A DNA stretch of 64,000 nucleotides from the human T2T-CHM13v2.0 reference genome, Homo sapiens, in assembly GCF_009914755.1 (NCBI RefSeq), contig NC_060929.1. One strand, written 5' to 3'. This document shows, in pieces, positions 12,446 through 63,699 of the stretch. The translations under genes and the position numbers were made by a program. Below the pieces are notes generated by a model. That model was not told the origin of the DNA, did not search any database, and saw only the letters and a program-made list of their open reading frames with translations. Within the stretch, counting starts at the first letter, position 1, and the number at the start of each line of letters is the position of its first letter.

Positions 12446-12632
12446 GGTCTCAAGAGCACGCTCAAGTCATTCACATGTTTCCATCAAATACAGACACAGA
12501 TCAGGGAAGATTAAACCCTACTAATTTCTCGTCGGATGCCTCACAACAAGGTGCCTTCCAAGAACTAATGGCCAAAATATCCACCCACAACACAAATAAG
12601 CTTAGAAAATCTCTTCTTACAATCCTGACACA

Positions 12633-13744
12633 ATGGAAGTTTCCCTAAACCACCCAGCATCTAATACAACCAGCACAAAGAACAACAACTCGGCATTTTT
12701 TTACTTTGAGTCCTGTCAACCCCCTTCTCCAGCTTTACTCCTATTATGCATAGCCTATACTGTGGTCTTAATTGTGGGCCTTTTTGGAAACCTCTCTCTC
12801 ATCATCATCATCTTTAAGAAGCAGAGAAAAGCTCAGAATTTCACCAGCATACTGATTGCCAATCTCTCCCTCTCTGATACCTTGGTGTGTGTCATGTGCA
12901 TCCATTTTACTATCATCTACACTCTGATGGACCACTGGATATTTGGGGATACCATGTGCAGACTCACATCCTATGTGCAGAGTGTCTCAATCTCTGTGTC
13001 CATATTCTCACTTGTATTCACTGCTGTCGAAAGATATCAGCTAATTGTGAACCCCCGTGGCTGGAAGCCCAGTGTGACTCATGCCTACTGGGGCATCACA
13101 CTGATTTGGCTGTTTTCCCTTCTGCTGTCTATTCCCTTCTTCCTGTCCTACCACCTCACTGATGAGCCCTTCCGCAACCTCTCTCTCCCCACTGACCTCT
13201 ACACCCACCAGGTGGCCTGTGTGGAGAACTGGCCCTCCAAAAAGGACCGGCTGCTCTTCACCACCTCCCTTTTTCTGCTGCAGTATTTTGTTCCTCTAGG
13301 CTTCATCCTCATCTGCTACTTGAAGATTGTTATCTGCCTCCGCAGGAGAAATGCAAAGGTAGATAAGAAGAAGGAAAATGAGGGCCGGCTCAATGAGAAC
13401 AAGAGGATCAACACAATGTTGATTTCCATCGTGGTGACCTTTGGAGCCTGCTGGCTGCCCCGAATATCTTCAATGTCATCTTTGACTGGTATCATGAGGT
13501 GCTGATGAGCTGCCACCACGACCTGGTATTTGTAGTTTGCCACTTGGTTGCTATGGTTTCCACATGTATAAACCCTCTCTTTTATGGCTTTCTCAACAAA
13601 AATTTCCAAAAGGACCTGGTAGTGCTTATTCACCACTGCTGGTGCTTCACACCTCAGGAAAGATGTGAAAATATTGCCATCTCCACTATGCACACAGACT
13701 CCAAGAGGTCTTTAAGATTGGCTCGTATAACAACAGGTATATGA
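12633..13744 (+). pseudogene. NPY6R: Neuropeptide Y receptor Y6, frameshifted (290-aa truncated ORF 12633-13505; ancestral C-terminus continues in another frame to TGA at 13742-13744)
   Basis: Class A GPCR motifs GN (TM1), ANLSLSD (TM2), ERY (TM3), CWLP (TM6); N-terminal glycosylation sequons; NPY-Y1-family motifs TLMDHWIFG, LIVNPRGWKP, LQYFVPL. After CWLP the sequence reads CCC CG AAT ATC TTC AAT: one base missing near 13461 from PLNIFN. The shifted frame carries TM7 (CHLVAMVSTCINPLFYGFLNKNFQKDL). Restoring one base gives 1113 nt = 370 aa + stop. Confidence 0.97.
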
Positions 13745-51767: not shown

Positions 51768-53873
51768 CACTAAATAATAAAATAGGCAAGCAAAAGAAAA
51801 TAAATGGAACAACACAATAAACTCTCCAACAAATCAAAATAACTTAAGCAACATTTTAAAAGAATGCAGAGTTTAGGTTATTGTATGAATTTAAAATATT
51901 CTCACTAATGTGACATTTTAATACATTTAAAATACTGTACATTGCTAAACCTGCTTTATCTTACTTCTCTTTCCTCTTTTTTTCCGAATGAAGCTACTGT
52001 CAAATTCTTCAGTTGTTCACTTTTAAATAGATCTAATGTCCTATTTTTCAGACCACTGAACCTATATAATATCCATGAAGCTAGTATAACTCTGCAGACA
52101 TCCTAGCTATTCAGGCAATGTTATAAAGGCATCATCATTGTTCATTTGTCTGATCTCTATGTATCTTGTCATCTTTCCAGGGTAAGATTGCCAAGGTCTT
52201 GGACTCTTCATTTGGTGGAGTCTAATTCTGTTCTCTTTACAAAGAGCTAGGGTTACACTCAGCAAAGGTTACCATTTACGTGAGACATGAAGCCGGCTAG
52301 CGTAACGCATCACCAAAGTAAAACCCCTGGCTATTTTTTCCCTCAAGGACATCCCCAGTGCCACATAAAATCAAGAAAGAACACTTCAGGATAGGTCACA
52401 CGTAGGGCCTGCATGTACTATGAACCCACACTTTCATTTTTATATTCTGGAGTGCGCTATTTTCAGAACAGTCAGACAAAGGGGTATTTTTCCTTTTGAA
52501 AAATCTCCTTTTCTCTCCCCTAGAGGAAAATACATGAGAATCAAATGTAAGAGACTACAGTGGCTTTAGCAAGAGAAGCCAATATTTAAGGGTGAGCTTT
52601 CTTTTAGAAATTATTCCTTTTTGTGTTTGGCTTTGCTTTATCATTTACTCAAATTAGTTATCAAAGATTTTTAATAAATAAATAATATTTTAAATTGTTT
52701 CAGTAATTTCTAAGACTCAGCTCATTATCTTTCAAACCTCTGCATTCTGAAGTGGCAGTCAAAGCCAGTGCCCTAAGTGCTGACTGCTTTTGCTTTAAGC
52801 ACTAACGTTCATCTTTCTTTCTCTTATCCTCGGATGGAAATTCATCTACTCTGGTAATTCTGAAAATTGGAGATTTTAAAGCATGATCGGGCTTCGAGAT
52901 TTTTTTTAAATGTTTAAAAATAGCAAATATTAAACCTAGAAGAAACCTTAGGGACCATCTCACTTCTGATATAACTGAGACCCCAAAAGTCTTGCCCAAA
53001 TCATAACTAATAAACGACAGCCATAAAACAGAATCCAGATTGCCTTAATCTTGAATTAGTGCTCTCTTTCACCATATTACTTGATCTTTCTATATTTTTA
53101 TCCATTTCAGATACAGATTATATAACTCAGCAATATGCCCAAAGTAAGATTCAGGGCATTTCTTTGTTCCATTAGTCATCACTGTCTTTTTTCATTGGTT
53201 GGAAGATCAGGGACAGGAAACAGGAAACTCCTTCTTGGCCTCCCCACCCCATGGATTAAATGGTAGCAGGGGCTGCCTGGTGCCTTGCCCATGAAGCTTG
53301 ACTATTCATGCTTAGAAGGAGGAGCATCATGAACATTAAGAAACCAGGTACAAAGACCCTTCTCTTTATAAAGATTGAATTTTCTCTTTTTTGTTTTCAT
53401 TAGCTTAAGGATATAAAACAATTTCAAGGTGGCAAAAGCCTGAATTCCACACACCACCAAAACTATTCTGCTCATCTTTTCCAGCTATTCCTTTGAGATG
53501 TGCCAGGAGCTTAGAGGATGTTTTATCCTCTTGCACCAACTGACCTTACACATTTACTTATAAGGCATGTTTCTTCCAAAAAGTTCCAGAAGTTTCATAT
53601 ATACTCTCTCATATGCTTCCCCCACAGGGGGAAGCATTTCATTTTTATTTTTTTGCCATAGCCAAAGTTTCCCTGTTGTTTCCAGGGTTTCTTTCCAGAG
53701 TTTGATGCTTAAAGTTTAGACTCTCTGGAAGTCACAAACATTCCCAAATGAAGTCTCAACCAATACTGCCAACAAAGCCAACTTATTCATTCAACAATTA
53801 CTTATTGAGCATCTCCTGTGTGCCTGGCACTATTCCAGACACTAGGGATTCAAGAGTGAACAAAACAGACTAA

Positions 53874-60297: not shown

Positions 60298-60364
60298 GTG
60301 CTCAGGGAAGTAAGGAAGTTTTATCTCTGGAATTGTGGTTGAAATGTGCTACAGAAATTTCAGG
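60298..60364 (+). pseudogene. Palladin/myopalladin-like exon A (post-Ig1 linker), 67 nt, phase 1 to 2; putative vestigial upstream exon of myotilin
   Basis: Acceptor TTTTTTCTCTTTCTTGCAG|GT, donor CAGG|GTAAGT; open frame (G)AQGSKEVLSLELWLKCATEIS(G) joins in phase to exon B. Peptide similarity alone is weak; support comes from splice sites and phase. Confidence 0.65.
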
Positions 60365-60775: not shown

Positions 60776-60893
60776 GATAAAGAAGAAAACCACTAGAGTT
60801 TCTCTGACCATCAGCTCCCCAACGAATGAAACCTCCAACAACAGATCAAGTTACTCTAACTTAGTTCAACAACTGTATATTAATCCCTAGAGG
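60776..60893 (+). pseudogene. Palladin-like exon B, 118 nt, phase 2 to 0, with in-frame TAG
   Basis: Acceptor TTTTGTTTCCCCCACAG|G, donor AGG|GTAAGT; encodes IKKKTTRVSLTISSPTNETSNNRSSYSNLVQQLYINP*R. KKTTRVSLTISS resembles palladin QKKTTSVSLTIGSS (recalled). Confidence 0.8.
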
Positions 60894-61590
60894 GTAAGTT
60901 CAGTTTTAAGCCTTCTGAGAGGGTCTTAGTAATGGAGACATAGGCCCAAGAAAAAGGAGTCAATGCAGTTTTCTTAAGAAGTATACAAGAAGAAAGCCTC
61001 TAGCTGCATGAACTCAAAAGAACAAGAAAGAAATCCATAGGTTTCAGAAATAACTCCATGGTAGCTCTATGGCTTGGCCCTTTGTTTGTGTGCCAGATAA
61101 GGGACAGTTGGTTTCTAGGAACTTGTTCCCATAAGAGAATATTCCAACTATCCGAGGAATGAATTCCCTTTTAATTTAAAAAAAAAGCGGGGGAGGGAGA
61201 TGCTTTTTTGGAAATCTAAAAGATCCAAGAAGAGCAATTGTATGGAGGAAGAAAAAAAATTTAGTAAAATTTAAACTTTTTTTAAATGTTTAATATATAG
61301 TATCTAAATACTTGCCAATATGCATTTCCCAAATATAATTGCCCAGTGTTGTATTTCTCCATCTCAGCTAATGGAATGCTGAAGGATAAAGAAGCAAGTG
61401 TAGCACACTGGAGCAAATACCCAAACTGACACTGAAATTAGAAGCATCATGCTTTTCATAAAGGAAAGTTAAGGTGTGGTCAGTAGCAGCTAGAACTGAG
61501 CCCGTCAGTTTCTGGCAACCATGGACCTGAGTTTCAGGGCTTTGACAGTATGAGTGACAGCACCATGTTCTCTTTTATTCCTTAAACCAG

Positions 61591-61653
61591 ATGCAGAGTC
61601 CCTGCAGCAGCCTGTCAGGATCCACTTGTGTAGTACCCTCTGTGTTTACCAAG
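61591..61653 (+). pseudogene. Palladin/myopalladin-like exon C (start of Ig2), 63 nt, phase 0 to 0
   Basis: Acceptor TTCTCTTTTATTCCTTAAACCAG, donor AAG|GTAACC; encodes MQSPCSSLSGSTCVVPSVFTK, compare palladin VHSPTSYL...PPVFTK and myopalladin QSPTNYL...APVFTK (recalled). Confidence 0.8.
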
Positions 61654-62843
61654 GTAACCTCTCCATACTGCATGATGGAGTTTAGATTTTATAAGTAAGT
61701 TTTAGACATTAGTGAAGCGGTGAGAAGAAAAAAAGGGGAAATCAGAAAGGATTTCAGAGATTATTATCACGTTATATATGAGAAAAAATGAGGCTGAAAA
61801 GGGGTGAAATGATTTGCTCAGTGTCACAGAGCAATTCATGGTTTACCCTGTGCTCTTTAGACTTCTGCTCTGTGGCCGTCCTCCACCTCTGGAGGGCAAT
61901 GCTTAGACTGTCCCCTCCAAGGAGACTGCTTTGCCTGACCTCAAAATATAGTCAAATTCTCTTAACTAGCCATAAAATGCCATTCTGAAGAAGTCAACAA
62001 GCAAAGTAGTAACTAAGTCCTGATTAGGTCACAGCCAGGAATCACTATCTTCCCTCTCACCCACTGGAAATAGCACAATTCAATCACCCCGGTCAAACCA
62101 AAACTAGGGCTAAGCCTTCTCTGGGCTCTCTGTCTCCCAATTACCAAACCTGGCAGAATTGGAATCAATGCCCATTGCTGGCTCAAAGTATGAAATGCAG
62201 GGCAGGGATTTAATCTGTACCAGATACAGGATGGGAGACAAACAAAACAATGTCATTAAGAGTAAGTGACATTGCTATTGATTCTGGAAGCTTGTTTTCA
62301 ACAGATGCTGTCACGTACATGTCTGTTATTTCTACAAGTCTCTCCTGCTGCATTCCTTCCCTATAAGATGCCTGAGACCTCTGGGCATCAAGCCTGAGGG
62401 TTAGGCTGGTCCTTAGTCTAACCTGTAGAAAGACCTCAGATTCCCGCTCTCTGGTCTCACTGCCAAGTTATAATCTGAAATATCATTCTAGATTCCAGGG
62501 TACTCTGGGGTTGCAGGTAGAGGGAGGAGAAAGATCAGGATTTAAGGGGTAAATTTAACATAAATGCCATCCATTCATTTATACATTGTGATACTAAACT
62601 AGCTAAAAACACTTTTTATATATCTGTATAACTCTTACTCTTTACAGGAAGTTTTCAGACCTTTGTGAAATGAACCTCAAAACCCCACATATTTTGCTAG
62701 CCCTATTTCATAGACAAAGAACCTGAGTTCCAGAGAAGTTAATAGTCTTTTCCAAGTTCCTATAACCAGCTTCAATCAGCCAGTGGCAGAGTTAATATTT
62801 TGGCCCAAGTTCCCTAATTCAGGGCTCTTAAGAAATTACAACA

Positions 62844-63188
62844 TAGTACTCACTTCGTTATCCAGTTTCACTTTCTGTGGTTTCAATAACCCACGGTCAA
62901 CTGCAGTCTGAAAATAGATGAGTAGAGTATAATAAGATATTTTAAGAGAAAGAGAGAGAGAGAGAACACATTCACATAACTCTTATTACAGTATACTGGT
63001 ATAATTGTTCTATTTTATTAGTTATTGTTGTTAATCTCTTACTATGACTAATTTATAAATTAAACTTTATCATAGGTGTGTATTACAGGAAAAAACACAG
63101 TGTACACAGGTTTCAGTACTATCCATGGTCTCGGGCATCCACTGAGGGTCTTGGAATGTGTCCCCTGCAGATAAGGGGTGATTACTGT
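62844..63188. mobile_element. MER44-like Tigger MITE
   Basis: TTATCCAGTTTCACTTTCTGTGGTTTCAATAACCCACGGTCAACTGCAGTCTGAAAATAG...GATAAGGGGTGATTACTG with degenerate TIRs. Confidence 0.85.
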
Positions 63189-63557
63189 ACTGCCCATGCT
63201 ACTGTGACCAATAATAAAGACTAAATCTGTGACTAGATATGTACTCAACAAAATAAATATAACAACAGAAGGAGTGTTCAACCAATCTGTTTTCTAATTT
63301 GAATAAAATGGCTCTTGGCCAAGTGAAATAATAACTTTCTCATTAAATATAATTCTATGAAGATAAAAATAATTTACACCTGACTGTAAAGCACACTACA
63401 AAGCCCAAAAGAATGCCCGACAGCGCCTTAAGATACAGTCAGCTGTCAATAATTATGATTTAAAAAAAGATGCACTCTTACTGCAAATGGCATTTCAAAT
63501 CATTGTAGATGGTATAACAGTTTCTTCCATCCTCTGAACTCTGTGTTTGTTCTTCAG

Positions 63558-63699
63558 CATCTTCAAGACATCCCTACAACCAGAGGTCAGTTGGTCATGT
63601 TTGAATGCGGAATCCAGGCCACAGCCACAGTTCAAGTTCACTGGTACAGAGAGAACGTGCAGATAGCCAACTCAGATGACTTTCGGATTCTGAGGAAAA
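63558..63699 (+). pseudogene. Palladin/myopalladin-like exon D (N-terminal half of I-set Ig2 domain), 142 nt, phase 0 to 1
   Basis: Acceptor TGTGTTTGTTCTTCAG|CAT, donor AAAA|GTATCA; encodes HLQDIPTTRGQLVMFECGIQATATVQVHWYRENVQIANSDDFRILRK with I-set B-strand Cys and C-strand Trp. Aligns without gaps to recalled myopalladin Ig2 MLQNLSASEGQLVVFECRVKGAPSPKVEWYREGTLIEDSPDFRILQK. Confidence 0.88.

What the first reader, a model, noticed from the sequence alone, without database searches (positions are those of the whole stretch)
60888..60890. A single in-frame TAG is the only visible lesion in the four-exon chain
Seen: exon B ends CCC TAG AGG|GTAAGT, and the rest of the 390-nt spliced frame has no stop or frameshift. 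Palladin and myopalladin end the equivalent segment in QQ (recalled), so a CAG-to-TAG change is the simplest explanation. Inference: splice sites and frame are well preserved, suggesting relatively recent inactivation. Skipping exon B (118 nt) would not restore the frame, so a full-length transcript would be an NMD target.
Basis: partly seen in the sequence, partly recalled or inferred. Interest (0 to 1): 0.7.

Follow-up and report, generated by a model that had tools for sequence, protein, structure and literature searches.

The report
Dead front end of human myotilin
This stop codon is one of about seven breaks in leftover exons that, in predicted gene models from fish to whales, give the muscle protein myotilin a third immunoglobulin domain, so the textbook two-domain human myotilin is likely a shortened form whose front end probably began to decay before humans and macaques split.

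Summary
The TAG at 60888-60890 is real, and the four exons give a 390-nt frame with no other stop. They are the human orthologs of the 5' coding exons of a three-Ig myotilin found as predicted models from bichir and coelacanth to tenrec, rodents and ungulates. The aligned residue is Gln in 16 of 18 non-primate mammal proteins, so CAG>TAG is well supported. But it is not the only lesion and not recent. The orthologous start ATG is ATT (60357). Beyond the window a micro-exon is 4 nt short, an acceptor is shifted, a 1-nt deletion brings a second stop, and the join to MYOT exon 2 makes a third. A macaque model shares three of these, has Trp at the TAG site, and differs from human at the neutral rate (28 of 215 residues). 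No in-frame ATG precedes the TAG in the annotated chain, so this codon is not itself the NMD trigger. Verdict: pseudo-exons of a live gene, labelled lncRNA LOC107986368; ten searches found no paper on the three-Ig form or its loss.

The parts
53485..53564 (+). Candidate upstream exon 0 (AG acceptor, GC donor); not in the RefSeq model
   Evidence: Matches the first 15 residues of the macaque model (score 50-54, best of 200 shuffles 41); sequence; sites. Use in human transcripts not tested.
60298..60364 (+). Exon A; mostly 5' UTR in orthologs; same length (67 nt) as the PALLD exon after Ig1
60344..60346 (+). Out-of-frame ATG: 13-codon uORF with the normal exon B acceptor; in frame with the TAG only if the acceptor at 60783 is used, as in the macaque model
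60357..60359 (+). Lesion 1: ATT where orthologs have their start Met; shared with macaque (inferred from its out-of-frame reading, 16 of 16 residues identical)
60776..60893 (+). Exon B (118 nt), homolog of PALLD 106-nt and MYPN 115-nt exons
60888..60890 (+). Lesion 2: the TAG; Gln in most orthologs, Trp in macaque
61591..61653 (+). Exon C (63 nt); begins with an in-frame ATG (A at -3) at which many bird and mammal models start
63558..63699 (+). Exon D (142 nt, as in PALLD and MYPN): first half of the lost I-set Ig domain; RefSeq model uses an internal donor at 63643. The chain continues past the window end (window numbering continued): micro-exon 64967-64986 (lesion 3, 20 nt instead of 24), exon E 66315-66431 (lesion 4, acceptor shifted 2 nt, shared with macaque; lesion 5, 1-nt deletion with TAG at 66420), exon F 66532-66770 (lesion 6, acceptor out of phase; lesion 7, join to MYOT exon 2 at 74875 makes TAG, macaque ORF ends at the same place)
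   Evidence: for exon D; for the parts beyond the window

Best explanation
The TAG is a likely CAG>TAG change in one of seven leftover exons that, by orthology with predicted gene models in other vertebrates, once encoded the front of a three-Ig myotilin; they carry about seven breaks, probably began to decay before the human-macaque split, and likely make no working protein. Mechanism: the ancestral gene had an upstream transcript (about 800 aa, extra I-set domain homologous to palladin/myopalladin Ig2) and the downstream promoter that makes the familiar two-Ig protein (inferred from models). On the primate stem the long form lost its start codon, an acceptor and its in-frame join to exon 2 (inferred from lesions shared with macaque); the rest decayed neutrally (inferred from divergence). 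The exons are still spliced as a non-coding RNA (RefSeq prediction, not tested). The TAG is probably also a stem change later turned to TGG in macaques (about 3 to 1), and is a passenger: no ATG-started frame reaches it in the annotated chain (shown).
For: Long models align exon by exon, in order, across these exons and on into every canonical MYOT coding exon; Pfam finds three I-set domains in mole-rat and coelacanth models; such models occur in fishes, amphibians, reptiles, birds and mammals. Exon sizes and phases match PALLD/MYPN (67/142/24/120 nt in PALLD). Tree: human+macaque 100/97 inside the mammal myotilin clade 100/100, paralogs outside. Lesions shown in sequence. Macaque shares lesions 1, 4, 7 and 31 derived residues of 215, against 11 human-only and 15 macaque-only, 2 columns differing in both. 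Human-macaque 28 of 215 equals the simulated neutral 28.3 (19-38) at 6.5% divergence, a recalled figure. Changes at columns conserved in 27 non-mammals: human 6 of 47, macaque 7 outside its shifted stretch (11 in all), median 1 in 23 non-primate placentals. Single copy in the genome.
Against: My relative-rate control (dead Ig versus live Ig1+2, human against 11 long models) was not significant: 15 versus 9 changes, p=0.37. Dog (6 of 50), lion, degu, kangaroo rat and tenrec (5 each) reach the human count at conserved columns. All long forms are predicted models; many species' models stop after exon F as ~240-aa 'palladin-like' genes. Macaque evidence is protein only (one named model, one unnamed assembled contig) and its frame is open for 262 codons. 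No lemur, tarsier, New World monkey or ape ortholog was seen; 90% clusters show one name each and only the best 120 of 259 and of 157 hits were listed, so the date is loose.
Confidence: 0.85

Rival explanations
1. The exon cluster survived in catarrhines as a weakly constrained stand-alone gene of about 260 aa; the macaque frame never closed (CAG>CGG>TGG) and the TAG and other hard lesions arose only on the ape or human branch.
For: Macaque model and an assembled contig (6 members, 1255 nt) have an open frame (262 codons in the contig) over exons 0-F with a full-length Pfam I-set hit. Kangaroo rat has Arg at this site, so the intermediate is tolerated. Both lineages carry a frame compensation beside the shifted exon E acceptor.
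Against: Macaque-only changes (15) are as many as human-only (11) and hit conserved Ig positions; it lacks the micro-exon and five residues at a core strand are out of frame. Three steps are needed against two; my rough hand estimate with recalled rates favours a shared TAG about tenfold under neutrality. The macaque was found because its frame is open (ascertainment).
Confidence: 0.09
2. Humans still translate a functional truncated peptide from the ATG that opens exon C, the 4-nt micro-exon deletion having offset the 2-nt acceptor shift.
For: Chain A-B-C-D-micro-E-F gives a 110-codon ORF whose stop lies 9 nt before the last junction, so it would escape NMD by the 50-55-nt rule (rule from established knowledge). 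Donors of A, B and the micro-exon match 8 of 9 consensus positions.
Against: The ORF stops before the last Ig strand and has lost conserved Pro, Arg and Gly; two uORFs precede it; the RefSeq model uses the internal exon D donor, cutting the ORF to 49 codons; divergence is neutral.
Confidence: 0.03
3. One reading: a recent single-hit inactivation by this TAG, the transcript being an NMD target because of it.
For: Within the 390 nt the TAG is the only stop and splice sites are canonical.
Against: Six other lesions, three shared with macaque; 44 of 215 residues differ from the non-primate consensus where a human-chimp-age loss would add only about 3 neutral changes; no in-frame upstream ATG.
Confidence: 0.02

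Closest known systems
Palladin (PALLD) and myopalladin (MYPN), pre-Ig2 linker and Ig2 exons
   Same: Same exon order, phases and near-same sizes, same I-set domain; PALLD exon of 67 nt ends with a Met at the position of the myotilin start.
   Different: Paralogs, not orthologs; intact in human; no remnant of their Ig1 exons was found upstream in the window.
Long (three-Ig) myotilin models of non-primate vertebrates, and ~240-aa 'palladin-like' models
   Same: True orthologs, mammalian ones mostly 60-88% identical exon by exon, colinear with MYOT.
   Different: Open frames with a start Met; human copy has about seven lesions. They are database predictions; the papers read describe myotilin with two Ig domains (PMC5479843, PMC8002584).
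Pseudo-exons within live protein-coding genes (Mudge et al. 2019, PMC6886504: 32 genes, e.g. MAP3K19, KIF25, OBSCN)
   Same: Ancestral coding exons disabled while the gene goes on, in some cases from a downstream ATG.
   Different: MYOT is not named in the main text or the supplementary files searched (file 1 not searchable, file 8 searched only by coordinate prefix and cut when stored). Here a whole folded domain is lost and the remnant is annotated as a separate lncRNA.

Membership tests
Palladin/myopalladin/myotilin family | I-set Ig domain sequence | tested here: met
   Exons D and E each pass the Pfam I-set cut-off; the non-self genome hits of exon D are MYPN and PALLD exons
Palladin/myopalladin/myotilin family | Shared exon architecture around Ig2 | tested here: met
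   142-nt exon, 24-nt micro-exon (20 in human MYOT locus), same phases
Palladin/myopalladin/myotilin family | Orthology to myotilin rather than PALLD/MYPN | tested here: met
   Colinearity with MYOT; tree of 51 rows, lion, camel, sheep and narwhal left out, bootstrap not fully settled
Palladin/myopalladin/myotilin family | Z-disc localisation, alpha-actinin/actin binding of the long form | not testable with these tools
   Needs experiments
Unitary pseudo-exons of a live gene | Coding in outgroups at the syntenic place | tested here: met
   Predicted models only
Unitary pseudo-exons of a live gene | Disabling mutations in human | tested here: met
   Seven lesions; the stops and the ATT seen directly, indels and acceptor changes inferred from ortholog proteins and paralog exon sizes
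Unitary pseudo-exons of a live gene | Rest of gene intact, no replacement copy | tested here: met
   Canonical MYOT exons align open; single copy
Unitary pseudo-exons of a live gene | Neutral evolution | tested here: inconclusive
   Human-macaque rate fits neutral; dead-versus-live control p=0.37; no DNA for dN/dS
Unitary pseudo-exons of a live gene | No protein product | not testable with these tools
   Needs ribosome profiling or proteomics
NMD target through this TAG | TAG ends a translated, ATG-started frame more than 50-55 nt before the last junction | tested here: not met
   Only with the alternative acceptor at 60783 (42-codon ORF); in the annotated chain both upstream ATGs are out of frame
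NMD target through this TAG | Stabilised by UPF1 loss | not testable with these tools
   Needs experiment

The most novel reading that the evidence does not exclude
Three-Ig myotilin is the ancestral vertebrate form, killed on the primate stem, and the dead exons were re-opened in macaques (TAG to TGG, a compensating deletion, a new start through an alternative acceptor) to give a spliced, translated 262-aa single-Ig protein with a function: a resurrected gene fragment.
Probability: 0.07. Interest if true: 0.8.

Novelty: new member of a known kind. Interest (0 to 1): 0.5.

Why it matters
Myotilin, a myofibrillar-myopathy gene, is described as the two-Ig member of its family. The evidence says the vertebrate gene can encode a third, N-terminal Ig homologous to palladin/myopalladin Ig2, and that humans lost it. 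Fish, chicken, pig, dog or guinea-pig muscle may therefore contain a myotilin form that humans cannot make, which bears on model choice and on antibody and knockout design. It also explains lncRNA LOC107986368 as pseudo-exons of MYOT and suggests that many 'palladin-like' gene models are the front of MYOT. The TAG itself is minor: one passenger lesion among several.

Tried and rejected
Single recent lesion: rejected. TAG as conserved terminator: rejected, all 60 proteins read through this site (a protein search cannot return orthologs that do have a stop). Alternative upstream donor: only a weak in-frame GT at 60875. Ig1 remnant upstream in the window: none, three paralog queries. Second genomic copy: none. 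P0001, a 100% hit to exon D, matches the splice of the antisense PKD2L2-DT read on the other strand, so it is not evidence of sense translation. Dead-versus-live relative-rate test: not significant. PDB search gave mainly titin-like Ig matches; ESM Atlas gave Ig/PALLD/myotilin-like clusters with phylum-level taxa, no help for dating. Muscle promoter motifs near exon 0 and NPY6R: one MEF2-like match each among 23 in the window, uninformative. Literature: ten searches gave no paper on a three-Ig myotilin, its loss or LOC107986368; two papers on chicken myotilin were not held and could describe a longer form. No structure prediction was run.

Full report
Observation. The sequence shows CCC TAG AGG followed by a GT donor, with the TAG at 60888-60890. 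Exons A 60298-60364, B 60776-60893, C 61591-61653 and D 63558-63699 sum to 390 nt, have AG/GT ends and read without another stop. Skipping B shifts the frame. Exon D is an I-set Ig half (Pfam 27.5 bits, cut-off 23.7), whose two other matches in the genome are the MYPN and PALLD Ig2 exons (gene names from chromosome position, recalled, and from alignment to named MYPN and palladin proteins). The matching PALLD and MYPN exons do end in two Gln.

What the exons are. A search with exon D among longer proteins returned 23 hits of 25 candidates: myotilin models of 621-814 aa (pig, marmot, mole-rat, guinea pig, degu, reindeer, sheep, tenrec) and ~240-aa 'palladin-like' models (whales, squirrel, deer, zebra, beaver, pangolin and others). 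Two more searches (best 120 of 259 and of 157 listed) extended this to armadillo, dog, opossum, birds, lizards, crocodilian, turtle, salamanders, coelacanth, bowfin, paddlefish, bichir and teleosts. The two long models scanned have three I-set domains, and the mammalian long models tested align in order over exons B, C, D, two further exons beyond the window (66315 and 66532, window numbering continued), and then the canonical MYOT coding exons. Exon sizes mirror PALLD (67, 106, 75, 142, 24, 120 nt) and MYPN (52, 115, 72, 142, 24, 117 nt). In a tree of the domain (51 rows; lion, camel, sheep, narwhal left out; bootstrap not fully settled) human and the macaque-type contig group 100/97 within mammalian myotilin 100/100, apart from both paralogs. 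There is no second copy and no Ig1 remnant upstream in the window. So LOC107986368 overlies the 5' coding exons of an ancestral three-Ig myotilin. All long forms are predictions; none was tested as protein here.

The TAG. The aligned residue is Gln in 52 of the 60 myotilin-type proteins that my pattern could read (of 243 fetched; redundant isoforms included), Lys in 4 salamander-type proteins, His in pig, Arg in kangaroo rat, Trp in 2 macaque-type proteins; Gln in 16 of 18 non-primate mammals. CAG>TAG is the simplest history (inference; no ortholog DNA).

Other lesions (window numbering continued past 64000). (1) 45 of the 60 proteins have a start-Met motif where human has ATT at 60357. (3) The micro-exon at 64967-64986 is 20 nt against 24. 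(4) The exon E acceptor reads AC at 66311-66312 and the next AG is 2 nt on; PALLD and MYPN keep AG there. (5) A 1-nt deletion near 66414 gives TAG at 66420, before the last strand. (6) The exon F acceptor (66532) is out of phase. (7) Exon F ends TA at 66770, so joining to MYOT exon 2 makes TAG; joining to exon 3 would give Tyr. Conserved Pro, Arg and Gly of the Ig are also changed.

Age. The only named primate hit is a Macaca fascicularis model (P0139), with a near-identical unnamed assembled contig (P0137). Its reading of exon A is identical to human over 16 residues and requires the ATT; it reads the shifted exon E frame for five residues before returning; it ends where human lesion 7 is; it lacks lesions 5 and 6. 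Against the consensus of 14 non-primate placentals, 31 of 215 residues are derived and shared, 11 human-only, 15 macaque-only, 2 differ in both (using P0137). The 28 human-macaque differences equal the neutral simulation at 6.5% (28.3, range 19-38; the 6.5% is recalled). With recalled branch lengths the neutral part of the stem is 0.06-0.08 substitutions per site (95% 0.02-0.12), very roughly 40-70 million years. Against this: the dead-versus-live Ig control was not significant (p=0.37), and five non-primates reach 5-6 changes at deeply conserved columns against human 6 of 47 (median 1 of 23 placentals, opossum left out for short coverage). Macaque TGG shares the T with human TAG: stem TAG then A>G takes two steps, CAG>CGG>TGG plus a separate ape change takes three; I put the first at about 75%.

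How the RNA would behave. In the annotated chain the ATGs at 60344 and 60826 are out of frame (13 and 12 codons), so no ATG-started ribosome meets the TAG; with the acceptor at 60783 used by the macaque model it would end a 42-codon frame. The ATG at 61591 gives 49 codons with the RefSeq donor (an NMD candidate), 80 without the micro-exon, or 110 with it, since lesions 3 and 4 cancel. None completes the domain. That the model's exons 5-7 are the micro-exon, E and F is inferred from its count of 7 and end at 67040.

Literature. Seen: passages of PMC5479843 (85 vertebrate myotilins analysed, two Ig domains, no hit for 'third Ig', 'three Ig' or 'additional Ig'), passages of PMC8002584 (498 aa, two Ig), of bioRxiv 2020.09.25.310029 and of PMC10069870 (palladin 140 kDa form has four Ig; the Ig1-Ig2 region binds CARP and FHOD1), PMC6886504 passages and supplement searches (pseudo-exons in 32 genes, MYOT not named), a term search of the TOGA2 preprint (no MYOT), supplement search of PMC9789052 (13 files, MYOT absent, 2 not searched). 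Ten searches found nothing on the three-Ig form or its loss; subscription papers, two chicken myotilin papers and bioRxiv supplements were not visible. What the extra domain did is untested; by homology to palladin/myopalladin Ig2 a role in CARP-type partner binding is a guess.

Verdict. Real stop, right kind of change, wrong age and weight. The finding of value is the dead front end of MYOT: a new member of a known kind, interest 0.5.

Noticed in passing
L005 region, window numbering continued 74875-75085 (MYOT exon 2, 5' part): The 70 codons before the canonical MYOT ATG are open and differ from the long-form consensus at only 8 of 70 residues in human, against 12-32 in nine other mammals; exon 1 supplies no in-frame ATG. 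Possible constraint or non-AUG extension; MYOT absent from PMC9789052 supplements searched.
   Followed up: partly
L004, window numbering continued 64967-64986 and 66311-66345: The 2-nt acceptor shift of exon E is offset in human by the 4-nt-short micro-exon and in macaque by a different indel inside exon E. Two nearby compensations are odd for neutral DNA, though splice forms were chosen after the fact.
   Followed up: partly
window 53485-53564: Unannotated candidate exon with a GC donor, matching the N-terminus of the macaque model; it has an acceptor, so the true first exon may lie further upstream (NPY6R exon 1 is an untested candidate).
   Followed up: partly
window 12606-13505: NPY6R pseudogene: a 299-codon open stretch, with a further stretch in another frame from 13397. 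A second primate-inactivated gene (recalled) directly beside the dead MYOT exons; no paper held both names.
   Followed up: no
window 60887-63689, minus strand: PKD2L2-DT is antisense over exons B-D and its annotated end falls at 60887, beside the TAG; protein P0001 matches this splice read on the other strand.
   Followed up: partly
P0136 (dog), P0140 (lion): Carnivore copies of the extra Ig carry 5-6 changes at deeply conserved columns and the lion model lacks a normal N-terminus: possible separate relaxation. No mouse, rat, rabbit or bat myotilin name appeared in the three hit lists.
   Followed up: no
L018 (PALLD 67-nt exon) versus window 60298-60364: The myotilin start Met lines up with an internal Met at the end of the same-sized PALLD exon, suggesting the long myotilin descends from an internal-start, Ig1-less form like the 140-kDa palladin (link recalled, untested).
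   Followed up: no
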